In this document: positions 2,485 through 40,400 of the stretch, one piece after another | Numbering within the stretch: the stretch's first letter is position 1 | Layout of the letters: the number at the start of each line of letters is the position of its first letter | Assembly (NCBI GenBank): GCA_030390025.1 | Contig: CM059432.1 | Coordinates: 86,058,001-86,122,000, forward strand | Direction: 5' to 3' | DNA length: 64,000 nucleotides | DNA from: Squalus acanthias | Lineage: Eukaryota | The notes under the pieces: generated by a model | What the model was told of the DNA's origin: nothing | The model's database searches: none | Seen by the model: the letters and a program-made list of their open reading frames with translations, nothing else | Made by a program: the position numbers and the translations under genes

Positions 2485-4461
2485 CTATAAGTGCTTAATC
2501 TTTCTCTTATGCGTGCTTCTACGTGGTGCTTCCCCTGTGGCTTCAGCAGCTGTAGAGGCACCTTGCTGACTAGGATGCTGCGCCTGCTTAGACGCCGTTG
2601 GTGGGCGTCCTCTGGGTTTAGGAGCCTGGGAGGGCTCTTCAACAGTCTGCTCTTCCTGCGGCGGTGCAGGGGCTGAAACGGCCATCTCAGTTGTCTCCGC
2701 AAAGTGGGTCTCTGACCGAGGGCTCCGCAGTGGCATGGTCATGTGAGTGCTTTGAAAAAAGCCCATGCTTCCTCTGTCCTGCCAACAACATCCCTCTCAT
2801 GGGTCAGCCACACCTCAGTGCTGGCAAGTAGCTGGAGAGCACCTTGTTGCACATCAGGGGGAACATGAAGACCCGTATCTGCACTGGCAGTCCTCATCAA
2901 AAGGACGTCCATGAAGCTCTGGTCTCTCTGCTCAATAGCTGCCCATTGCTCCTCCAGAGATGACATTCTATTTTGAACAGTCACCATGTTTTCCTGACTC
3001 TGGTGACTTATTTCCTCCATGGAGGTAGCCGTCCTTTCCACTGAGGTAGCCAGCCTTTCCATGGAGGTTGCCATCCTATCCATGGTGCTGCGTTCATGCG
3101 CCATTGCCTCCACCACGGCAGTGCTGATGTTACAGATGGACTCCTTCATTCTCTCCACAGTCGCACTAACCCTGGAGGTAAACGCTTCCAGAGACTCCTG
3201 CACTTGTTCCTGTATTTCCCAAGACGCTCTTTTTCTGGATGGCCCCAGAGGCACAGCGTCTGCATGCAGCTCAGCAGAGCTAGGAGATTGCTGCGATCTC
3301 CGCCAAGGACTCTCCACTGCTGTCGCTGTCTCCACCATCTGCTGATGCTCACTTGTGCGCTGTGATAGACCAGGTGGCAAAACTACTCTAACTCACGAGG
3401 GCCCCACCGAGGTGTGCGTTGCTGCGCTGGTGCTGGGTGCGCTGAGTCCTGGTGACGCTGCTCCCTCTGAGGCTTCAGGTTCCTCTGAGGAGTTGTCCGG
3501 CTCTTCATCCTGGGTCCTGTGGGAGAGTAAAGGCATGATTTAGACATCTGATATTGATGTAGCAGATGATACAACACGATTCTCTATGAGCATCATATGC
3601 CATTGCATTCTGAGAGGGATGAAACTCTATTATGTCACCAGCTTCCTCTAGTGTGCCCGTCTCTCCATCACCCACTTCCAGGTCCTCGCCACCTCCAACA
3701 ATCTGGTATGCAGCCTCCTCAGCTTCTTCTAGTGTGCCCATCTCTCCATCACCCACTTCCAGGTCCTCGCCATCTCCAACAATCTGGTATGCAGCCTCCT
3801 CAGCACTGGTCAATGTGGCTAGGGTAGTAGGTGTTCCTCCTCCAGTCATTGCTCTCTCCCTCTTATTGTGGGCTATCTTTTCGTGCAAGGAGGGACACAA
3901 GTGGTGTTTCAGCCACAGTGATGGAGTGAGTGTGAATAATCCCTACCATAGAAGCTTTGAGGGAGACGAAGATGGGTAAGGTGCCAAGAGGAAGCTAGCT
4001 CCCTGTGCATTGGTAGTTGTCATTGCATGAGAGTGAGAGCGAGTCTAAGGGGTGCATAGGCAGGATGCTGAAATGATTCAGTACAGAGACAGAGATGGAC
4101 AGGTAAGGGTGCAAGGGAAGTAAAGGTAAGGTGGATATGAAGGAGGAGGCTTCCAAAGCAGAGTACTGGTGATGAGAAGAGAAGGGAAGTAGATTGAAGG
4201 CAAGTGTGATGGGATACTCACTTTTGATGTTTGCACAAGATCATTAAACCTTTTTCGGCACTGGATCCATGAGCATGAACATATGGACCTTGTGCTGACC
4301 TCTTCAGCAATGAGCAGCCAGGCTGCCTTGGTCTGCTGAGGAGGCTTCCTCCGGCCATCAGGCGGGAAGAGAATCTCCCTGCGCCCTCTGACAGCATCCA
4401 CAAGAGCATGGAGGGAGTCGTCATTAAAACGAAGAGCTGCTTTGCCTCTCGAAGAAGTCAT
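2485..4461 (-). pseudogene. Harbinger Myb/SANT-like (MSANTD-type) DNA-binding gene; exons ~4461-4222, 3882-3639, 3516-2485; disrupted
   Basis: MTSSRGKAALRFNDDSLHALVDAV...W..IAEEV...SWIQCRKRFNDL, then GTGAGT donor at 4221. Exon 2 EKIAHNKRERAMTGGG has a mutated acceptor (CAC). Exon 3 has coiled-coil heptads, an AT-hook-like KPRGRPP, an internal stop and frameshifts. Confidence 0.8.
3640..3804. repeat. 81-bp tandem duplication inside exon 2 of the Myb/SANT gene
   Basis: Two near-identical copies encoding AEEAAYQIVG(D/G)GEDLEVGDGE(M/T)GTLEEA. Confidence 0.95.
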
Positions 4462-6059
4462 TGCGTATAAATCAATATCAATGAGTCCAGGAATCCACAA
4501 GAGAAAGGCTTGGGCTGAATGGCAGCTTTGACAGCAGCTGCTATGAGGACAGCAGCAGAGGCGGCCAGTCGACCCGATCCCACTCATTGGACCAGCTAGC
4601 GTGGCTCATTGAAATCAACAAGCTCATTGAATCAAAATCGGACAATAGCAGCCGATCCCGTCGGAAGCGGCTCCGGAACCCGCCCACCATGCAACCAGAC
4701 TCCAAACCACCTCAGGAATTAAAATCGAGCCCTTTGTGTCTATCTTCACGGAAGAAGACGTAAAAAACTTCCCGGAAACAGTGGAGAACCAAGGGTCTAG
4801 CGAGAATGAGGAACTGAAAGATATTTGTACTAGTAAAAATTTAGTACTGGAGAAATTAATGGGACTGAAAGTCAATAAATCCCCTGGACCTGATGGCCTA
4901 CATCCTAGGGTTTTGAAAGAGTTCGCTATAGAGATAGTGGATGCATGGTTGTCATTTTCCAAAATTCCATAGTTTCTAGAACGGTTCCCACAGATTGGAA
5001 GGTAGCAAATGTAACCCCACTATTTAAGAAAGGAGGGAGAGAGAAAACGGGGAACTACAGACCAGTTAGCCTGACATCAGTAGTCGGGAAAATGCTAGAA
5101 TCTATTATTAAGGACGTGGAACAGGGCACTTCGAAAATAATAATAGGATTGGGCAGCGTCAACACGGATTTATGAAAGGGAAATAGTGTTTGACAAATCT
5201 GTTGAACTTTTTTGAGGTTGTAACAAGCAGAATAGATAACGGAAACCAGTGGATGTGGTGTATTTGGATTTTCAGAAGGAATTCGATAAGGTGCCACACA
5301 AGAGGTTATAAAACAAAATTAGGGCTCATGGGATTGGGGGTAATATACTAGCATGGATTGAGGATTGGTTAATGGACAGAAAACGGAGAGTAGGAATAAA
5401 CGGGTCATTTTCGGGTTGGCAGACTGTAACTAGTGGGGTACCGCAAGGATCAGTGCTTGGGCCTCAGCTATTCACAATTTATATCAATGATTTGGATGAG
5501 GGGACTAAATGTAATATATCCAAGTTTGCTGATGATACAAAGCTGGGTGGGAATGTAAGTTTTGAGCAGGATGCAAGGAGGCTTCAAGGGGATATAGACA
5601 GGCTAAGTGAGTGGGCAAGAACATGGCAAATGGAATATAATGTGGAGAAATGTGAAGTTATCCACTTTGGTAGGAAAAATACAAAAGCAGAAATGGTGAG
5701 AGAGATTGAGTAGACTAGGCCTATATTCTCTGGAGTTTAGAAGAATGAGATGTGATCTCATTGAAACATATAAAATTCTTACAGGGCTTGACAGGGTAGA
5801 TGCAGGGAGGATGTTTCCCCTGGCTGGGGAGTCTAGAACCAGGGGTCACAGTCTCGATAAGGGATCGACCATTTAGGACTGAGATGAGGAGAAATTTCTT
5901 CACTCAGAGGGTGGTAAATATTTGGAATTCTCTACCCCAGAGGACTGTGGAGGCTCAGTCGTTGAGTATATTCAAGACAGAGATCAATAGACTTTTGAAT
6001 ATTAAGGGAATCCAGGGATATGGGGATAGTGCAGGAAAGTAGTGTAGCGCAGCTCACCA

Positions 6060-7188
6060 CTCCCTGCTGTTTCCTCCTCTTGTCAGCTCTTTCCCCAGGG
6101 TTGAAAAGCTTGCACTGATTGATATGGAACCACTTAGTGCGTCGAGGCATTTTGACCGCATATACCATCGGACTTGCCCTATCCACGATACTGTACGGTC
6201 CCATGTATAGCGGTTCAAAAGTCCCAACCCTGGCGAAGTTTCTAACCATTACTTGATCTCTGACCTTCCACTCGTGGTGCCTCTGAGGCTCAAGCAATAA
6301 ACGATTTCTACGATTTTGCTTTCCCATGTTACTGGCAGCCTGCCAATGGATCTGTCTGAGATGCTCAAACAAATTCTTAACAAACCTGTCCCGGTTCACC
6401 TCTCTCAACTGACCTTCCGTGAGAACCGGGGCCAGTACATGGCTGGGCGTTCTCATGACCCTGCCAGTCACGAGCTCATGCGGGGAATACCCTGTGCTTC
6501 TAGACGGGCTGGCTCGGACCCCCATCAGAACTAACGGCAAGACCTCCGCCCATTTTCTAGGCGAGTCTCCCGTCTCCTTCCTATTCATCCGCTCCACAAT
6601 CCCCAATGACTGCGGGTTGTGTGCGACGTGCCATTTACCCTCTACACCTAGCATCTTCAGAGTCGCCTGCATGACTGCCCCTGTGAAGTGACTTCCCTGA
6701 TCGGACTCCACATACTGTGGTAGCCCCCACCTAGAGAACACTTCTCTCACTAGAATCCTTGCGGTCCCCAAAGCTGTGGCTGTTCGGCATGGGAAGGCTT
6801 CTACCCATTTAGAGAACACATCCACCAGGACCAGGCAGTACTTGTAACCCCCCTGTGCGGTGGGCAGCGGTCCGATATAATCAACCTGTATGGACTGCCA
6901 TGGTCCCTCCACTCTCCTCCTAGTGTGTCCCATGGATACCTTCCATTTCTGGGGGTCAGGGTTGTTTGCAGCACACACCAAGCAATCCGCGCAGAAGTCG
7001 CAGACGTCTTCCCTCAGTTGCGGCCACCACCCTGCCTGTTCCACCCGTTGCCAGGTGGTCTCCGGCCCGGGGTGCCCTGCTCCTGGATCCTCGTGGGCCA
7101 ACTGAAGGAATTCTCTCCGGTGCTGCTGCGGAACTACCCACTGTTCCCCTCTGAAAACCATCCCTTCCTTTACCGTAATACCTGCCAC
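6060..7188 (-). pseudogene. Integrase
   Basis: HHCC (AHEDPGAGH...CLVC), DDE triad (QVDYIGPLP, SDQGSHF, IVERMNR) and C-terminal GPY module. Confidence 0.93.
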
Positions 7189-7260
7189 TCCGTATGGACC
7201 CTCTACCTTATCTCCCTTAGCCAGCGTCTCCAGAACAGTCTTTAGGGCGGGATCCCGTGC

Positions 7261-8359
7261 CTAGACCATCTTTAGGTCCGGAGCCAATGCTACCCCTGCA
7301 CTCCCTTGGGTCCCACCTCTGTCTCTGATTGCTGCTACCAGACTCGACCCATATGGATCCCAAAACGTGCCCGTTCGAGCACCTGCTTTGGTCAGCACGT
7401 CGGCCTGCTGATTGCCCTCCGCACAGGGTTCTGCCTTAGAATGGGCCTTGTCTTTGTGGATATAGAAATCCCCCTGGGTTCCTATCGATGTTATGATCTG
7501 TTGCAACAATGGCTTGGTTGCTAGGGGTTTCCCGTCTGCAGATGTGAACCCGCGACGAGACCAAATGGCTAAATATTCTGTACACGAATTGCAAGTGAAC
7601 ATGCTGTCCGAGCAAATCGTGTAGGGCGTAGGGAACTCTTCGGGGTGGATAACCACATACACCACCGCCGACAGTTCCGCGTGCTGGGCGCTCATGGTGC
7701 TTGGGAGTTTAATGGCCTTGGCAATGCCTGCCTTTGGGTCAAAAATCCCGCATCCAGTGAGTCGCTCCCCGGCCACCACTGTACTGGACCCGTCTACATA
7801 GATCTCGCGGCCCATGGGATGGATCCCAGCCCGAAACCCTATGTCTACGTTCCATACCCCTTCAACAGAGCATTTGTGGACCACCCCTGGGTAGATAAAA
7901 TTTGCGGCGAGCTTGGGCTCACAGAGGCCTTTCACACTCAAATTCATCAGAAAGAGCAATAAAGTCCAGCGAGCAATGCGTGCACTGCTCACCGTGCCGT
8001 CCTTTATCCTCCCATCCAGAAGCATCTGAGTGGGCGTATGATGGGTTAAGAGAGTTATTGGGGACGCCCCCGTGAAGATTTGTGATCTCCTCACGGCCCA
8101 ATGTGTGGCAAGCAGGTGCCTCTCACAATTGGAGTACCCCCTCTCTACATCTGTGAGGATTCTTGATGAGTATACCACAGGCCTCAGCTTGCCATGCCAC
8201 TCCTGGAGCAGCACTGCAGGTCAAACTGTCCCCTGTGGCAGCTACCTCCAAAAAGAACTCCTTTCCCCCATCAATCGCTCCTAAAGCCGGTGCGGTCTGC
8301 AGATCTCTCTTCAGACGACTAAAAGCTGCCATGCAGTCCTCATCCCACTCCCAGCCCAC
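7261..8359 (-). pseudogene. Tether/connection domain (degenerate RNase H) followed by a retroviral-type RNase H
   Basis: RPVVYSSRILTDVERGYSNCERHLLA...ARIARWTLLL, then IYVDGSS...SAQHAELSA...ICSDS...WSRRGFTSADGKP...KAH...GNQQAD. Confidence 0.88.
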
Positions 8360-9755
8360 TCCCTTGTGGAGGAGCCGGAGTAGAGGAGCTGCCGTAGCGG
8401 CACAGTCCTCTATGAAATCCCTGCAGTACCCTGAGTCCCAGGAAGGATCTTACCCCCGTTACCGTGGTCGGGGCAGGTAGCTCCTGTACCGCCTTCCTTT
8501 TCGCCTCATCGATGGCCCTCTCCCCAGCACGCACAGTCAGCCCGAGGAATTTTACTTCCTGCTGGCCGATCTGTGCTTTCTTGGGATTAACCTTGAACCC
8601 AGCTTCCTTTAACAGACTCAGCAGCTCAGCCAACAGGGGGCCATGCTCCTCCCCCTCGTTGGAGAACAAAAGCAGGTCGTCCACGTACTGCACAAGCCGC
8701 TGCGGTCTGCTAAACCCTTTTAAACAGTTGGCCATACATTGGTGGAAAATAGAAGGACTGTTATGAAACCCTTGGGGAAGGCAGGTCCATGTGTACTGCT
8801 GACCCTTGAAAGTGAATGCGAACTTATACTGGTCCTCCCTTTTGAGAGGGATAGACTAGAATCCGTTCGAAATGTCCAGCACCGTGAATGTTTTCGTGGA
8901 TGCTGGGATACTCCCGATCAGGTCGGCTACGGCTGCGACGGTGGGGGCACAGGCTGGGATGTTCTTGTTAAGAACCTGATAGTTCACAGTGGCTCTCCAC
9001 GAATTGTCCGGTTTCCTAACCGGCCAAATCGGAGAGTTCACATGCGTCGCTATGGGTATCAACACACCCTGCTCAACCAATAATCCCAATGCCATCTCTA
9101 AATCCGCCTCTGCCTCTCTGGGGAAGTTGTACTGTTTCTGTGGTCGGGCCATGGGGTCTCCTTCTACTCTGACCTCCACCCCTATTACCCTCCCACAGTC
9201 GTGCTTGTGTGTAGCGAATGCCGCGAGGTTGGCTCGCACATCCGCTATGTACTCCGCCGGTGTAGAAGTGACCAAAAGTTCAAGGTCATAACTACCCTTG
9301 GGCTTCATCGTACACACGGTTCCCTTGCCTTGCTTCCCTGGTATAACTACCACCTCCTTCTCCTTTCCCGTGCATACTGCCCCCCAAAGACAGTGATTCC
9401 GGAAATCCACCAATATCTTGTGGGCCAGTATGAATTCTGCCCTCAAAATGCCTATTCCCTCCCGCTCCCACCGCATCAGGACACATTTCCACTCCGTATG
9501 GAGTGTACCCAGATCGATGGCTAGTGGGATGGAGAAAGACCCAGCCTGTTCGTTCCCTGTGAACCCTACTAAGTTATATGGGACCCCGTTTGATAGAGGT
9601 GATGTGGTCGGGTTATCCGCATAGACAATGGTGCTTGTAGCTCCAGTGTCCAGCAGATAGGTCCCTTGCACCTTCTCCACCCCCATCTTCACGCACGGTC
9701 TCTTCCAAGCATCATAACTTAGTGGGCACAGGTAAACGGGCTGAGAAGCCCCTAG
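8340..9755 (-). pseudogene. Aspartic protease and reverse transcriptase
   Basis: YLLDTGATSTIV; NSPIWPVRKPDNSWR; VLDISNGF; LPQGFHNSP; LVQYVDDLLL; VKFLG. Stop at 8856-8858 and frameshifts. Confidence 0.92.
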
Positions 9756-12650
9756 TCATTGGTCGGGATTGTTCGGGGCGGATGGGAGTACGCTGCCGCG
9801 TCCACCCTGCCCTGCCGGAAAGACTGCGCGGCGAGCAGCCACTAATACCGCGAACGGACCAGTGCTGCTTCCTGCCACAGCTGCGGCTTTCTGCACTGGT
9901 GCTGGAGGATCCCCTTTCCCGCTCCTTTTGTCAGAGACTGGGCAGTCTTTCCTCCAGTGCCCTTTACTCCCGCACCCATAACAACCCTGCTTCTTCTCTG
10001 AGCTACCCCCCTCCTGGCGCCACTCTCGTCTAACATTGCCTCCACCAGGCTTTAACTCGTGTACTCTGCCCTTTTGGTTTGTCATCCTCACCCCTACCAT
10101 TCTTAGAGAGAGTTAACTGCCGGATCTCACACTCGTCTGTGGTCTGGGGATCCCTGGAATCGAACCACCCCTCTGCTTTGGCCTTGATCCTGGGCAGGCT
10201 GTTCGCCACCAGGGTCCTCAGCCAATGAGCCCTAGGCTCCCGCTGCAGCTGCGCCCGGTTGGGCACCCCCGCACAGGCACTCCAGTAGACGGGCCAAAGC
10301 CTGTCCGCGAAAGCCTGCGGTGCCTCCCCAGCTGACTGCAGTGTCCTTTCCACTCGGGAGAAGGGACTTCCATCATTGAGGCCCATAGCCTCTAGGATGT
10401 CATCCTTTATCCCCTCTAACGTACCCTGCCCCCTCTTGCTACCCGCTGAGAGCAACTGGTACAACCTACTATCCAGGGAAAATAAAAGTAATTTGGCTGT
10501 CTCAGCTTCGTTGCAATTATTGATCCCCCCCCCCCACCTGCTCCACATCCGTAAAATGGACAGATAGGTCCCCTGTGCTGGTCAGTTTGGTCAGGTTAGA
10601 GACCATTGCCTGCAGCTGGGGGGTTGTATATGGGACCACGAAGTCACTCTGCAGTGCTCCTTGCTCTTGACCGTCTACGGGCGCACCGTATTTCCGCTGC
10701 CGGACAGGGCACATGGGTCCTGGTCCCGGCCCTTCGGGCGGTGGTCGAGCGTCCTCCTCTGCCTCAGTCCTCCATATCTCCCTCTTGCTCTTCCTCATCT
10801 ACCCAGGCCATTCCCGGAGCTACCAAGCAGACCATCCCTTTGGCCTTAGAGCATCGGTCAAATTCCGGATCTGCTCCTGGCAAAGGACCATGATTACCCG
10901 TATCAAACCCTCCAGTGCTGGCGACTCTGTATTGTAAGGGGTTTTTGTCTCGGGCTTATTTGTAGGTCAGCCAGTTATGTTTTCCTGGACTGTCCTTGCC
11001 CGCTGTGCGGTTGCGAATCGCTATCCCCTTATTAGTTCTGAGCCCAGGACTTATCAAGCGGCAATAAGGACAAACGAACAAACCCGTGGATTGGTGCGAG
11101 GAAAACCAATGTTTATTTAACAGAGATGAAACATAACATGTCAATCTTAACTTCGGTATAAACGAGGGAAATGACAGTAGAACAATACCTCACCCCTCCC
11201 AACCCCACTTTACTAGCTAAGTTAGACTCTTGAGGACCAGGGATAATGCTCACCAAACGAATCCTTTGACAGTTGAGGATATGGTTTAAAGTCCTTTTAA
11301 GTAAAAAGTTTCATAAGGCCCTTGTGCCTCGAGGTGTTTGATGGTCACTGGAACCGTTGCTCTGGTTCCTTGCGTGTCGGTCTGTTTCTGGAGCTGCTGG
11401 CCTTCTTTGTTGAACGGTCTTGTTTCTCTTGAACTGTGTACTGGAGAACTCCTGTGCTTCAGCTGTCCTGCTTGTGGCCTCTCTGTGTAGAACTCCTGCT
11501 TGTTCCAGCACAGGTCTCTGTAGCCCCCGGCTTGTAGAACTCGTCTCTCTCCCCCTCCGGCTTGTTCCAGTCTAAAGTTATACTGTTCGATTGTTCCTTA
11601 TTTGGCCGCCAAATCTTCCCAGTGCTTTGTTTAATTCTGGTCGGCTCGTTAAGGTAGTTAACTTTTAATGGCAGGAGATGGCCTTTAACGATATTAAATA
11701 TTTGTTAAGTGGAGGATGATTGCTGGTCTGATGGTTGTTCATTTGTGTTGCCTTTACTTCTTTGTATAAATGCTAAACAGTTTGATGGGGCTGGAGATAG
11801 GTCGAATATACAACATTGTCTGTAGAGGCCAGCCTCGCCTCCTTTGGCAGCCTCTGAGGTCTGTTTAAAAATGTTTTAAAATGTCCCTGGTCCAATACAC
11901 TCAATTGGTTTTAAAATGTCCAAAGCCCCTTTTTCTTAGGGTCTCTCTCTTTTCCTCTGAGTCTTTTGGGGGTCTGGGAATTTCGCAACTCTCTTACAGA
12001 CCTGGGCATGTCACCTTGCCTGCTGTTTTTGCAGGGCCCTGGTTTCTGTTCAATGTCGCAGGCTTCTGCCATGAGGTCTAGAAGCCACTTTGTCCAGGGT
12101 ACCCCTTATTAATAACTCTGGGGAATGTGGGAATTTTGAGAACCCTACAGTATGCCACCTGAATATCCTTTAACTGCTCTCCCAGCACCTTTACCTCACT
12201 CGACAAGCGAGCGTTCTCCTCCCTAACCACCCTTTCATTCCCCTTTGCCTCAGTTACCTGGCATTGCAGGAACTCCTTATGGTTACGGAAGGTTTCCTCC
12301 TGGCTTATTCTTCCCTGCTTCTCCTCCCTTAGCTCCGTGCATAACCTGCTCCCTGCTACAGCCCTTGCGTCTGACTGTGCCTCGGACTCCCTGAGCTCTG
12401 CCTCTAACTTCGCAACCTGCTTATCTAGCAGTTGGACTTGTCTTTGTAGACAGACAAGCCATATCGCTTTTTCAGTGCTGCGCTTATGCTCCTTGCCCTC
12501 CGTCCATTCTGCCGCTGCGTCCACCAGATGCTCAGCACGCAACAAGCCTAGCACCCACTTCTTAGTGATGTTAACCTTCTTAAACACATATGAAGAAATC
12601 CTTTCCTCCATTTGGGATCTTTCGCCAGAAGCGCTGTCCATGACTGATTT
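9756..12650 (-). pseudogene. gag, interrupted by a solo LTR at 10933-12149
   Basis: Coiled-coil N-terminal ORF 12078-12686 rejoins as DIQVAY|RVAST after removing the insertion; capsid-like ORF 10030-10548; single zinc knuckle CYGCGSKGHWRKDC. Confidence 0.8.
10933..12149 (-). mobile_element. Solo LTR, family B (1217 bp), inserted in gag
   Basis: TGTAAGGG...CCCTACA termini; 4-bp TSD GTAT (10929-10932, 12150-12153); minus-strand AATAAA near 11112-11117. Confidence 0.85.
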
Positions 12651-12667: not shown

Positions 12668-12685
12668 GTCCTGCCACGGTCGCCA
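12668..12685 (-). promoter_or_regulatory. Primer-binding site, probably tRNA-Arg(TCG)
   Basis: TGGCGACCGTGGCAGGAC, 5 nt downstream of the LTR. Complementary to the recalled vertebrate tRNA-Arg(TCG) 3' end GTCCTGCCGCGGTCGCCA with one G:U pair. Confidence 0.75.
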
Positions 12686-12690
12686 AGAGA

Positions 12691-13817
12691 TGTAAGCGGT
12701 TTTGATCCTAGCCCAATTGCTAGACGGACGGTTCGAATCGCCCCCGCCTTACGAAAGTTCTATACCCGGGAATTATTATTCAGAGTGTAAATGAAATAAG
12801 TCACGGACAGGAATGCTTCGGTGAAAAATCGTACTTATATTTATTTGGTCTAACATACACTGGCTAAAACATGCACTACTAAACGAAATTACTGTCTCTG
12901 TGGAGAATAAAAATCCAGGTTACAAACAACATACATACAGTACCCAACTGGGGACTATGACAAGCAGTAATTCACTTGTTGCTGTGGTGGACTCTAATTC
13001 CACCCCTACCAACGAATTACCCAGTCGCATAAGCCCCTTTGCCTGGCTGAACCAAATGAAGCTCCCACCCCGGAATAGCCCAAAAGCTTCACTTCTGAGA
13101 AAAACTCTGAGCCCTCTGGTTACCTGCTTGGGACACTCGAGACCATGCTTACCACCACTCTTGATCGCTCCGCTTAGCTGCTTCTTCCTCTGGTACTACT
13201 TCTTGTTAGGTCGATCTTGGTGCAGCAAGAGAGAGAGAGAATGGCGGGAAAGGGTCTATCTTTATAGGAGTCTCGCTACCCCTATCTTTCCCGCCAATCT
13301 TTAAAATCCTTTTGTTTCTAAGCACTCCGGTGCTTAATCAGTGATGGGTCATCCTCAGACCCATGAGTATTCCGTGATTGGACTAAAGGCCCTAAGTCTG
13401 GGACATCTCTCGGTCTTTGTGTTGGGGAAAAACTGGCTCCTCTCCGGCTGGCTAGGCTAGTGGGTTCATTGTTCTGCTTCTCTTCTGAGATGGAGGTGAG
13501 AAGTGCTTTTGCATATTAGAGTGGCTTTCTAATAGGTTCAAGTTCAACGGGTGCCTCAGGGTCCTCAGCCCCTTTGTCAATGGCCCCCCTTCCTTTTTCC
13601 AGGACTGTCGGGCAAACCCATACATTCGGGATGACTGACAGGTCTTTTGTCACAGCCAACTGCCATGCGTTCTCTGGAGTTTTAACAAACCAGTTTTTCA
13701 CATATCTGCACAGGGTGATCCCATCACAGGGAAAATACCCTCAGAAAAATCCCATAAAGTCCACAAAATATACTCGACTGAGTCCATTCTTCAAACAGAG
13801 ACTTTGCGATCTCTTCA
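12691..13817 (-). repeat. 5' LTR, family A (1127 bp)
   Basis: TG...CA termini; minus-strand TATAAA at 13261-13266 and AATAAA at ~12840-12845; close homologue at 39275-40291. Confidence 0.93.
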
Positions 13818-37481: not shown

Positions 37482-40400
37482 CCAAGGAAACCTCCTGCTG
37501 ATTACCACCTACCGCCCTCCCTCAGCTGATGAATCAGTACTCCTCCATGTTGAACAACACTTGGAAGAAGCACTGAGAGTAGCAAGGGCACAGAATGTAC
37601 TCTGGGTGGGGGATTTCAATGTCCATCACCAAGAGTGACTTGGTAGCACCACCACTGACTGAGCTGGCCGAGTCCTGAAGGACATAGCTGCCAGTCTGGG
37701 CCTGCGACAGGTGGTGAGAGAACCAACACGAGGGGAAAACGTACTTGACCTTGTCCTCACCAATCTACCTGTCGCAGATGCATCTGTCCATGACAGCATT
37801 GGTAGCAGTGACCACCGCACAGTCATTGTGGAGACGAAGTCCCGTCTTCACACTGAGGACACCCTCCATCGTGTTGTGTGGCACTACCACCGTGCTAAAT
37901 GGGATAGATTCAGAACAGATCGAACAGCTCAAAATTGGGCATCCATGAGATGCTGTGGGCCATTAGCAGCAGCAGAATTGTATTCCACTACAATCTGTAA
38001 CCTCATGGCCTGGCATATCCCTCACTCTACCATTGCCATCAAGCCAGGGGACCAACCCTGGTTCAATAAGGAGTGTAGAAGAGCATGCCAGGAGCAGCAC
38101 CAGGCGTACCTAAAAATGTGGTGCCAACCTGGGGAAGCTGCAACACAGGACTACATGCATGCTTAAAAGCGGAAGCAGCATGCTATAGTCAGGGCTAAGC
38201 GATCCCACAATCAACGGATCAGATCAAAGCTCTGCAGTCCTGCCACATCCAGTCGCGAATGGTGGTGGACCATTAAACAACTAACGGGAGGAGGAGGCTC
38301 CATGAATATCACCCTCAATGATGGCAGAGCCCAGCACGTGAGTGCAAAAGACAAGGCTGAAGCGTTTGCAACCATCTTCAGCCAGAAGTGCCAAGTGGAT
38401 GATCCACATCGGCCTCCTCCTGAGCTCCCCGCCATCACAGAAGCCAGTCTTCAGCCAATTCGATTCACTCCACGTGATATCAAGAAACAGCTGAGCGCAC
38501 TGGATACAGCAAAGGCTGTGGGCCCCGACAACATCCCGACTGTCGTGCTGAAGACTTGTGCTCCAGAACTAGCCGCACCTCTAGCCAAGCTCTTCCAGTA
38601 CAGCTACAACACTGGCATCTATCCGACAATGTGGAAAACTGCCCAGGTCTGTCCTGTCCACAAAAAGCAGGACAAATCCAATCCAGATAATTACCACCTC
38701 ATCAGTCTACTGTCAATCATCAGCAAAGTGATGGAAGGTGTCGTCGATAGTGCTATCAAGCAGCACTTACACACCAATAACCTGCTCACTGATGCCCAGT
38801 TTGGGTTCTGCCAGGACCACTCGGCTCCAGACCTCATTACAGCCTTGGTCCAAACATGGACAAAAGAGCTGAATTCCAGAGGTGAGGTGAGAGTGACTGC
38901 CCTTGACATCAAGGCAGCATTTGACCGAGTGTGGCATCAAGGAGCCCTAGCAAGACTGAAGTCAATGGGATTCTGGGGGAAAACTCTCCACTGGCTGGAG
39001 TAATTCCTAGCACAAAGGAAGATGATTGTGGTGGTTGGAGGTCAATCATCACAGCCCCAGGACATCACTACAGGAGTTCCTCAGGGCAGTGTCCTAGGCC
39101 CAACCATCTTCAGCTGCTTCATCAATCGCCTTCCCTCCATCATAAAGGTCAGAAATGGGGATGTTCGCTGATGACTGCACAGTGTTCAGTGCCATTCGCA
39201 ACTCCTCAGATAATGAAGTAGTCCATGCCCGTATGCAGCAAAACCTGGACGACATTCAGGCTTGGGCCGATAGGTGTAAGCGGTTTTGATCCTAGCCCAA
39301 TTGCTAGACGGACGGTTCGAATCGCCCCCGCCTTACGAAAGTTCTATACCCGGGAATTATTATTCAGAGTGTAAATGAAATAAGTCACGGACAGGAATGC
39401 TTTGGTGAAAAATCAACTTATATTTATTTGGTCTAACATACACTGGCTAAAACATGCACTACTAAACAAAATCACTGTCTCTGTGGAGAATAAAATCCAG
39501 GTTACAAACAACATACATACAGTACACAACTGGGGACTATGACAAGCAGTAATTCCCTTGTTGCTATGGTGGACTCTAATTCCACCCCTACCAACTAATT
39601 ACCCAGTCGCATAAGCCCCTTCGCCTGGCTGAACCAAATGAAGCTCCCACCCCGGAATAGCCCAAAAGCTTCACTTCTGAGAAAAACTCTGAGCCCTCTG
39701 GTTACCGGCTTGGGACACTCGAGACCACGCTTACCACCACACACAGTCGGTCTCGATCGCTCCGCTTAGCTGCTTCTTCCTCTGGTACTTCTTGTTAGGT
39801 CGATCTTGGTGCAGCGAGAGCGAGATGGTGGGAAAGGGTCTATCTTTATAGGAGTCTCGCTACCCCTATCTTTCCCGCCAATCTTTAAAATCCTTTTGTT
39901 TCTGAGCAGTCCGGTGCTTAATCAGTGATGGGTCATCCTTAGACCCATGTGTACTCCGTGATTGGACTAATGGCCCTAAGTCTGGGACATATTTCGGTAT
40001 TTGTGTTGGGAAAAACTGGCTCCTCTCCAGCTGGCTAGGCCAGTGGGTTCATTGTTCTGCTTCTCTTCTGAGATGGAGGTGAGAAGTGCTTTTGCATATT
40101 CTGGATGACTGACAGTTCTTTTGTCACAGCCAACTGCCATGCGTTCTCTGGAGTTTTAACAAACCAGTTTTTCACATATCTGCACAGGGTGATCCCATCA
40201 CAGGGAAAATACCCTCAGAAAAATCCCATAAAGTCCATAAAATATTCTCGACTGAGTCCATTCTTCAGACAGAGACTTTGCGATCTCTTCATAGGTGGCA
40301 GGTAACATTCGTGCCACAAAAGTGCCAGGCAATGACTATCTCCAACAAGCGAGCATCTAACTACCACCCATTGACATTCAACGGCATTACCATCGCCAAA

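What the first reader, a model, noticed from the sequence alone, without database searches (positions are those of the whole stretch)
9693..9761. gag and pro-pol in frame across a single CAA-UGA-CUAG stop: candidate readthrough
Seen on -: gag ends PNNPDQ-TGA (9758-9756). It continues in frame CTA GGG GCT... (LGASQPVYLCPLSYDAWKRPCVKMGVEKVQGTYLLDTGA) with no further stop before the protease site. Known: UGA-CUAG is a well-characterised leaky-stop context, whereas gammaretroviruses use UAG plus a pseudoknot and foamy viruses use a spliced pol mRNA. Inference: this lineage makes Gag-Pol by UGA-CUAG readthrough.
Basis: partly seen in the sequence, partly recalled or inferred. Interest (0 to 1): 0.7.

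Follow-up and report, generated by a model that had tools for sequence, protein, structure and literature searches.

The report
Alphavirus-style readthrough signal in fossil retrovirus
A dead retrovirus fossil, probably in a shark-like genome, separates its coat gene from its enzyme gene by one leaky-looking stop signal followed by a long predicted RNA hairpin, an arrangement known from alphaviruses but apparently not described for retroviruses.

Summary
Confirmed and extended. A defective endogenous retrovirus (minus strand; host probably a cartilaginous fish, inferred) has gag and pro-pol in frame across one TGA-CTAG (9758-9752). The stop looks like a family feature, not decay. No variant is listed at these seven bases in contigs from four organisms, a diverged relative has an in-frame TGA-CTG there, and related Gag ORFs end at the same place. 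The 5' CAA is mostly private to this copy. Codons between the stop and the first Met are under coding constraint. New: about 206 nt starting 10 nt after the stop fold into one long stem-loop (z -5.8; strongest of 95 windows), like the alphavirus type II signal. Its conservation is not shown: most unphased variants break pairs. Best reading (~0.85): Gag-Pro-Pol by UGA readthrough; hairpin as stimulator ~0.5; nothing measured. In-frame UGA at gag-pol is already published (XtERV-S, SSSV, ZFERV). I found UGA-CUA with an extended stem for no retrovirus in my searches, yet UGA-CUA(G) sits unremarked at this junction in five published lokiretrovirus consensuses and a frog class III ERV. The scan noted UGA-CUAG earlier in a fungal copia. 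New variant of a known kind.

The parts
12691..13817 (-). 5' LTR (TG...CA) of the provirus
   Evidence: termini read; 94-97% identical to a solo copy at 39275-40291
12668..12685 (-). primer-binding-site-like 18-mer starting TGG, 5 nt after the LTR
   Evidence: sequence; a match to tRNA-Arg is recalled, not tested (no tRNA gene in the window)
12150..12641 (-). gag, 5' piece (from the Met at 12641)
   Evidence: tblastn of related Gag ORFs P0045 and P0046, 36-45% identity
10933..12149 (-). unrelated 1217-bp solo LTR inserted in gag, 4-bp target duplication
   Evidence: termini and flanks; single copy in the window
9759..10932 (-). gag, 3' part (capsid-like region and NC); broken by frame changes near 10530 and 10070
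   Evidence: tblastn pieces in three frames; retrotransposon-Gag-like features; 13 homologues
9945..9986 (-). CCHC zinc knuckle of NC
   Evidence: PF00098, E 1.9e-5
9774..9785 (-). PSAP motif 9 residues from the Gag end (late-domain-like; function inferred)
   Evidence: also 10 residues from the end of P0045
9756..9758 (-). gag stop codon TGA, candidate readthrough site
   Evidence: no variant row
9752..9755 (-). CUAG 3' context (type II readthrough motif); first 4 nt of a 10-nt spacer (9755-9746)
   Evidence: motif tested in PMC4132726
9540..9745 (-). predicted extended stem-loop, 206 nt, 80 base pairs, beginning 10 nt after the stop
   Evidence: -92.4 kcal/mol, z -5.78, 0 of 200 shuffles; lowest of 95 windows; 0 of 300 codon-randomised controls; stable in longer contexts
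9555..9707 (-). N-terminal part of the aspartic protease (Pfam RVP match, residues 17-67; catalytic DTG at 9650-9642); first in-frame Met at 9686 lies inside it
   Evidence: (E 6e-4 to 5e-3, just under the curated cut-off)
6040..9755 (-). pro-pol: PR, RT (YVDD), tether RNase H, RNase H, integrase; broken by stops at 8858-8856 and 7263-7261 and frame changes near 8435 and 8220-8265; runs into a LINE near 6040
   Evidence: Pfam, tblastn of P0001, self-blast
39275..40291 (-). solo LTR of the same family, 4-bp target duplication

Best explanation
This retroviral lineage made Gag and Gag-Pro-Pol from one unspliced RNA by programmed readthrough of the gag UGA. Most ribosomes stop; a minority insert an amino acid at UGA (a near-cognate tRNA; Trp, Cys or Arg by general knowledge) and continue in frame into protease, RT, RNase H and integrase. 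The signal is of the alphavirus type (Beier-Grimm type II): UGA-CUAG gives basal leakiness, and a long stem-loop starting 10 nt downstream, at the ribosome's mRNA entry site, probably raises it. Shown: the sequence, the frame, family-level constancy of the stop among majority variants, coding constraint after the stop, and a strong predicted fold in this copy. Inferred: translation through the stop, its rate, and the role of the hairpin (about 0.5 on its own).
For: (1) laid 481, 522, 15 and 8 contigs from four organisms and four studies. None of the 40 listed variant rows falls on 9752-9758, while private differences of this copy show clearly (9638, 9760, 9832, 9859, 10011 at about 99-100%). 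The single bridging contigs of X1 and X17 carry no listed difference there. (2) A diverged contig in X8 has an in-frame TGA at the same place followed by CTG-A (loose end at 9743, 1 contig). (3) Related Gag ORFs end 78-82 residues after the first zinc-knuckle Cys (window 75): P0045 (60% identical over the matched piece) ends PSAPSDDAPQ, and P0046, P0058 and P0059 form one further cluster. None of the 9 nearest Pol relatives examined (P0001, P0002, P0004-P0010) carries a zinc knuckle or other Gag part. (4) Loose ends of diverged relatives keep QPVYLCPL (5 of 8 codons differ, all at third positions) and YD.W.RP.V (in one contig 5 of 7 kept residues differ synonymously); all lie upstream of the first Met (read by eye). 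The Pfam protease match starts at residue 17, before Met24. (5) Fold. The 216 nt after three other stops of this copy give z +0.68, +2.2 and -0.97, and after the gag stop of 6 reference retroviruses -1.08 to +1.36. (6) Geometry matches alphaviruses: spacer 8-12 nt and a long loop, stimulating up to 10-fold (PMC3159437). UGA-CUAG supports readthrough in vertebrate genes (PMC4132726). (7) The same UGA-CUA context recurs at the gag-pol junction of five lokiretrovirus consensuses and a frog class III ERV.
Against: No readthrough measurement, ribosome profile or protein exists. 52 variant rows were hidden (the weakest shown is about 32% share in its best run), so minority variants at the stop are not excluded, and contigs drop rare variants. 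Hairpin conservation is not shown. Of 28 listed variants in the stem region, each judged singly against this copy's partner base, 14 break a pair, 7 keep it and 7 are unpaired; one majority variant (9558) breaks a confident pair. pol as a whole folds somewhat better than shuffles (mean z -1.08; next-best windows -3.97 and -3.93). The Met at 9686 is kept in P0001 and in one X8 relative. In Tca2, a gag-UGA-pol junction alone did not direct readthrough in yeast reporters (PMC2194720 abstract).
Confidence: 0.85

Rival explanations
1. Readthrough is real but rests on UGA-CUAG alone. The long hairpin is chance or serves something else (packaging, export, protection from nonsense-mediated decay).
For: 14 of 28 unphased variants break pairs. 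In four human genes 12 nt after the stop suffice (PMC4132726). An extended stem in PSIV has no stimulatory effect (PMC13517186).
Against: The strongest fold of 95 windows begins exactly at the spacer distance known from alphaviruses. By eye, two unphased arms of diverged relatives (X1 9716 and X8 9577) keep 14 of 21 testable pairs, 3 by changes on both sides; this is weak because the arms come from different runs.
Confidence: 0.4
2. Pol is made separately, foamy-style, from a spliced message or by initiation at the Met at 9686. The TGA is a plain terminator, and CTAG|G is a splice acceptor.
For: The motif ends in AG|G. The Met is conserved in P0001 and one X8 relative.
Against: The Met lies inside the protease match (residue 24; the match starts at 17), only 12 residues before the catalytic Asp. 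Codons upstream of it are under coding constraint. The 16 nt before the AG are 50% pyrimidine with 2 T. In the diverged X8 contig the AG is displaced by two bases, and Loki-Bsp has CUAA. In the P0002 cluster the called ORFs start with no DTG motif, i.e. downstream of the catalytic site. The element is outside the foamy clade.
Confidence: 0.08
3. The TGA is a nonsense mutation of this dead copy (for example CpG decay) in a once fused gag-pol frame.
For: The copy has other premature stops and frame changes. Ten of 24 lokiretrovirus consensuses are annotated as fused gag-pol, so fused frames exist among distant relatives.
Against: No listed variant at the stop in four organisms, while other private changes show at about 100%. 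Related Gag ORFs end at the same place. A random TGA is followed by CTAG in 7 of 2266 cases.
Confidence: 0.03
4. Pol is reached by ribosomal frameshifting or another bypass, with the hairpin as a frameshift stimulator.
For: Long 3' structures also stimulate frameshifting (general knowledge).
Against: The frames are already the same. No X-XXY-YYZ heptamer (Y = A or U) was found in 9960-9641.
Confidence: 0.04

Closest known systems
Alphavirus nsP3/nsP4 readthrough (Sindbis, VEEV): Beier-Grimm type II with extended stem-loop (PMC3159437; PMC13517186)
   Same: UGA-CUA context; spacer of about 10 nt; long-range stem over a loop of more than 100 nt; gives access to a polymerase
   Different: Here it is a retroviral gag-pol junction. 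The predicted stem is longer (206 nt, nearly all paired, against 126 and 177 nt). Neither covariation nor activity is shown.
Gammaretrovirus gag-pol readthrough (MoMLV, type III)
   Same: In-frame stop between the NC zinc knuckle and the protease DTG; same output, Gag plus Gag-Pol
   Different: UAG-G with a compact pseudoknot. Nine reference loci have UAG after a CCHC Gag frame and show no long hairpin in the 6 tested. The RT lies outside that clade.
XtERV-S and related frog class III ERVs (PMC8278194)
   Same: gag and pol in frame across TGA, already proposed as suppression; PSAP near the Gag end. The Pyxicephalus relative has TGA-CTAG.
   Different: XtERV-S2 itself has UGA-CAG-G; no zinc knuckle, YIDD, dUTPase, 5-bp target duplication. 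The paper does not discuss 3' context or structure in the parts I read.
SSSV, ZFERV, RMEV, SnRV (unclassified fish and amphibian retroviruses)
   Same: Single in-frame stop at gag-pol, UGA in three of them (L010 reads UGA-AGA)
   Different: Contexts UGA-AGA, UGA-CGA, UGA-AGU and UAG-GGC; none is UGA-CUA
Lokiretroviruses (PMC7947760)
   Same: Dual RNase H. Five consensuses (Ofa, Cne, Pyo, Sau: UGA-CUAG-G; Bsp: UGA-CUA-A) have the same junction, in frame.
   Different: The RT signature differs (Loki rows read RCPFGY, this element CLPQGF); not reported from cartilaginous fish; the paper's main text never mentions readthrough or stop codon.
Tca2 of Candida albicans (copia)
   Same: gag-UGA-pol
   Different: Different family; predicted pseudoknot; the junction alone was inactive in yeast reporters

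Membership tests
Retroviridae (endogenous) | RT groups with retroviruses, not Ty3/gypsy | tested here: met
   SH-aLRT 100 in two quick trees; the 'gypsy' labels of unnamed rows are my reading of their Pfam lists
Retroviridae (endogenous) | PR-RT-tether-RNase H-IN order, LTR, PBS | tested here: met
Retroviridae (endogenous) | env gene and 3' LTR | tested here: inconclusive
   absent from the window; IN runs into a LINE near 6040; no genome held
Type II readthrough (UGA-CUA/CGG plus extended stem-loop) | UGA followed by CUA, conserved across copies | tested here: met
   (majority variants only; one diverged contig has CUG)
Type II readthrough (UGA-CUA/CGG plus extended stem-loop) | stem beginning about 8-12 nt after the stop | tested here: met
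   predicted, spacer 10 nt
Type II readthrough (UGA-CUA/CGG plus extended stem-loop) | stem supported by covariation or synonymous-site conservation | tested here: inconclusive
   unphased variants: 14 break, 7 keep, 7 unpaired; 3 two-sided changes by eye across different runs
Type II readthrough (UGA-CUA/CGG plus extended stem-loop) | measured readthrough that depends on context and stem | not testable with these tools
   needs a reporter assay
Gamma/epsilonretrovirus (class I) | RT within the class I clade; UAG stop | tested here: not met
   outside the 97-supported clade; the stop is UGA
Spumaretrovirinae (foamy) | RT within the foamy clade; no CCHC; pol with its own start in another frame | tested here: not met
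   outside the 12-row clade (support 100; the foamy label of those loci is recalled from genome size, no call names them); CCHC present; same frame. Fish and shark foamy-like ERVs were not in the tree.
ERV-L / XtERV-S (class III) | YIDD, dUTPase after IN, no CCHC, 5-bp target duplication (PMC8278194 Table 2 and text) | tested here: not met
   YVDD, CCHC present, 4-bp duplication at the solo LTR; dUTPase not testable (3' end lost). The position among basal, class III-like lineages is unresolved.
Lokiretrovirus | RT sister to sampled retroviruses (PFGY-type signature); F-like env | tested here: not met
   RT signature compared by eye; no named Loki sequence was in my trees; env not testable

The most novel reading that the evidence does not exclude
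UGA-CUA(G) readthrough with an alphavirus-like extended stem-loop is a third, overlooked recoding signal for retroviral Gag-Pol. It is shared by deep aquatic lineages (this lineage, frog class III ERVs, one lokiretrovirus subclade) and may be older than the gammaretroviral UAG-pseudoknot signal, or has been re-evolved repeatedly.
Probability: 0.35. Interest if true: 0.78.

Novelty: new variant of a known kind. Interest (0 to 1): 0.62.

Why it matters
The Gag to Gag-Pol ratio is essential to every retrovirus, and the mechanism is used to classify genera. A 2026 review (PMC13517186, passages read) has experimental retroviral readthrough only for gammaretroviral UAG plus pseudoknot, says the cis-elements of fish retroviruses are unclear, and lists no retrovirus with UGACUA. 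This junction supplies a specific, cheaply testable signal (UGA-CUAG, 10-nt spacer, 206-nt stem). It also explains why lokiretrovirus and amphibian ERV pol genes get annotated with odd starts, and it links retroviral and alphaviral recoding by convergence.

Tried and rejected
No genome is held, so copies could not be aligned directly; the window holds no second internal copy. Searches for DNA of close relatives found none: viral contigs, metagenome contigs, genome contigs; one search gave only distant reference retroviruses. The word-based Gag search found nothing. No RNA holder is listed on record. X17 is only guessed to be RNA; it shows no joint at the junction and one contig bridges the stop, but contigs cannot exclude splicing. 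Folds of 40-126 nt show no signal. A small hairpin at +5 to +18 has probability of 0.06 or less once the long stem can form. A crude pseudoknot search gave only 5-7 bp combinations that compete with the long stem; I gave them no weight. Rfam: 0 matches at E <= 1 in 9300-10100. I do not claim reduced variation in the basal stem: listed rows are sparse there but equally sparse in gag. The TGACTAG at the start of Loki-Lch pol is out of frame and was dropped; 12 of the 17 hits lie elsewhere or repeat other rows. The careful tree did not finish; both trees are quick trees, and one search used a chosen subset of 45 rows. The hairpins of the lokiretrovirus and frog junctions were not folded, so their structure is open. 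The lokiretrovirus supplement was readable for 300 of 318 pages, and line breaks can hide motif hits.
Full report
Observation. On the minus strand the frame 10112-9759 ends ...PSAPNNPDQ at TGA 9758-9756, followed by CTAG, and stays open for 299 more codons with the protease DTGA at codons 36-39. The upstream frame carries a CCHC zinc knuckle. TGA is followed by CTAG in 7 of 2266 cases in the window and in 1 of 86 within the element, this junction.

The element. It is a defective provirus: 5' LTR 13817-12691, a PBS-like 18-mer, gag interrupted by an unrelated 1217-bp solo LTR and by frame changes, then PR-RT(YVDD)-tether-RNase H-IN with two internal stops and frame changes, ending in a LINE near 6040. 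There is no env or 3' LTR in the window. A solo LTR of the family lies at 40291-39275. No genome is held. The host is probably a cartilaginous fish: distant Gag relatives (30-34% identity) are named from Scyliorhinus torazame and Heterodontus francisci; this is inference. The nearest named Pol relatives of P0001 (the closest unnamed Pol, 62% identical to the window) are amphibian and coelacanth proteins at 37-42%. Two quick RT trees (52 of 56 rows; a chosen 45 rows) put it inside the retroviruses (support 100), outside the gamma/epsilon clade (97) and outside the foamy clade (100), in an unresolved basal grade. The foamy label of the reference loci is recalled. The MoMLV, SnRV and SSSV labels agree with the length, stop position or context given in PMC13517186.

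Is the stop a family feature? Twenty of 24 listed runs, from 10 studies, hold the stretch or part of it. I laid four (organisms D, G, A, H; 481, 522, 15 and 8 contigs) on 9500-10120. None of the 40 listed substitution rows, and no listed indel or joint, falls on 9752-9758. Positions where this copy is private stand out at about 99-100% (9638, 9760, 9832, 9859, 10011). Fifty-two weaker rows were hidden, so minority variants remain possible. One diverged contig in X8 has an in-frame TGA at the same place followed by CTG-A. Related Gag ORFs end 78-82 residues after the first knuckle cysteine against 75 here; P0045 ends PSAPSDDAPQ. The more distant P0054 ends after 53, so the spacing is not universal. 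These protein records do not show which stop codon is used. None of the nine nearest Pol proteins examined includes Gag.

Is the stretch after the stop translated? Loose ends of diverged relatives (table 7, 20 shown, 77 hidden; read by eye) keep QPVYLCPL, with 5 of 8 codons differing, all at third positions (2 contigs). They also keep YD.W.RP.V, with 5 synonymous changes among 7 kept residues (1 contig; similar in two X4 groups of 6 and 4 contigs). All of this is upstream of the first Met (codon 24), and the Pfam protease match begins at residue 17. A Pol started at that Met would lack the start of the protease. Against this, the Met is itself kept in P0001 and one X8 relative.

The structure. 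126 nt after the stop fold no better than shuffles (z +1.24), but 200-250 nt do (z -3.6 to -6.5). The 216 nt after the stop form one long stem-loop from +11 to +216: -92.4 kcal/mol, z -5.78, 0 of 200 shuffles, 80 pairs. It is the lowest of 95 windows of 200 nt across gag-pol (-5.58; next -3.97; mean -1.08). It beats 300 of 300 protein-preserving codon randomisations (z -4.5). Nothing like it follows three other stops of this copy or the gag stop of six reference retroviruses. The core pairs keep probability near 1 in contexts up to 900 nt; the most basal pair varies (0.06-0.96) and is favoured when the first 9 nt are held single-stranded, as on a ribosome. Conservation is the weak point. Of 28 listed variants in the region, taken singly, 14 break a pair, 7 keep it and 7 are unpaired; many are G-to-A changes expected from decay, but they are unphased. 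By eye, two arms from different runs keep 14 of 21 testable pairs, 3 through changes on both sides; this is a lead only. Rfam has no match.

Mechanism. Most likely programmed UGA readthrough giving Gag-Pro-Pol (0.85), with UGA-CUAG as the basal signal and the stem as a probable enhancer (about 0.5). The arrangement matches alphaviruses, where a stem 8-12 nt after UGA-CUA/CGG raises readthrough up to tenfold (PMC3159437: abstract and passages). UGA-CUAG works in vertebrate genes (PMC4132726: passages). Rivals are readthrough without a role for the hairpin (0.4, compatible with the main claim), spliced or separately started pol (0.08), frameshifting (0.04) and copy-specific nonsense mutation (0.03).

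What is known. In-frame TGA with proposed suppression is published for XtERV-S (PMC8278194: passages, parts 2-3 of the text, supplement 5 part 1 and supplement 3 part 1). UGA junctions are listed for SSSV, ZFERV and RMEV with contexts AGA, CGA and AGU (PMC13517186: passages). That review lists no retrovirus with UGACUA and has no mention of lokiretroviruses or foamy viruses. Reading supplements, I found in-frame TGA-CTAG-G at the junction of four of 24 lokiretrovirus consensuses (Ofa, Cne, Pyo, Sau) and TGA-CTA-A in a fifth (Bsp) (PMC7947760: parts 1-2 of the text and supplement searches). Ten are annotated as fused gag-pol; the rest were not examined or lack gag. The main text has no 'readthrough' or 'stop codon'. 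The defective Pyxicephalus class III provirus has TGA-CTAG where XtERV-S2 has TGA-CAG-G. Tca2 is a caution that a UGA junction alone may not work in reporters (PMC2194720: abstract). Term searches in PMC9040795, PMC5210030, PMC5512871, PMC10435555 and PMC10699275 found no 'readthrough'. Eight literature searches showed no paper on UGA-CUA plus a stem-loop in a retrovirus. The library lacks most subscription papers, so absence from print is not proven. The scan earlier noted UGA-CUAG in a fungal copia and nothing similar by sequence or place.

Verdict. A real, family-level feature and a new variant of a known kind: retroviral gag-pol readthrough with an alphavirus-type signal, predicted but untested. 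Interest 0.62.

Noticed in passing
window 10933-12149 (-): A 1217-bp solo LTR of another family, with a 4-bp target duplication, sits inside gag; single copy in the window.
   Followed up: partly
window 39275-40291 (-): Solo LTR of this provirus family, 94-97% identical to the 5' LTR, lacking about 106 nt; it is inserted in a LINE.
   Followed up: partly
PMC7947760 supplement (Loki-Ofa, -Cne, -Pyo, -Sau, -Bsp): Five lokiretrovirus consensuses have in-frame UGA-CUA(G) between gag and pol; the authors start pol at downstream TTG/CTG codons and do not mention readthrough.
   Followed up: partly
PMC8278194 supplement 5 (Pyxicephalus provirus): TGA-CTAG at the gag-pol junction of a class III ERV whose Xenopus relative has TGA-CAG-G.
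   Followed up: partly
window 2488-4605 (-): ORF pieces with a Myb/SANT-like DNA-binding domain (PF13873), probably a decayed Harbinger-type transposon gene (family name recalled).
   Followed up: partly
L010:7485-7487: In this reference fish retrovirus, pol and the next long frame (env-like) are also in frame across a single UGA with the same AGA context as its gag stop.
   Followed up: no
window 9790-9803: Many laid contigs differ by short insertions here, in the last codons of gag, 30-45 nt before the stop.
   Followed up: no
window 16000-64000: Dense decayed LINE (RT/endonuclease) copies of several families on both strands.
   Followed up: no
window 8245-8046, 6445-6246, 8445-8246 (-): Further well-folding 200-nt windows in pol (z -3.5 to -4.0).
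   Followed up: no
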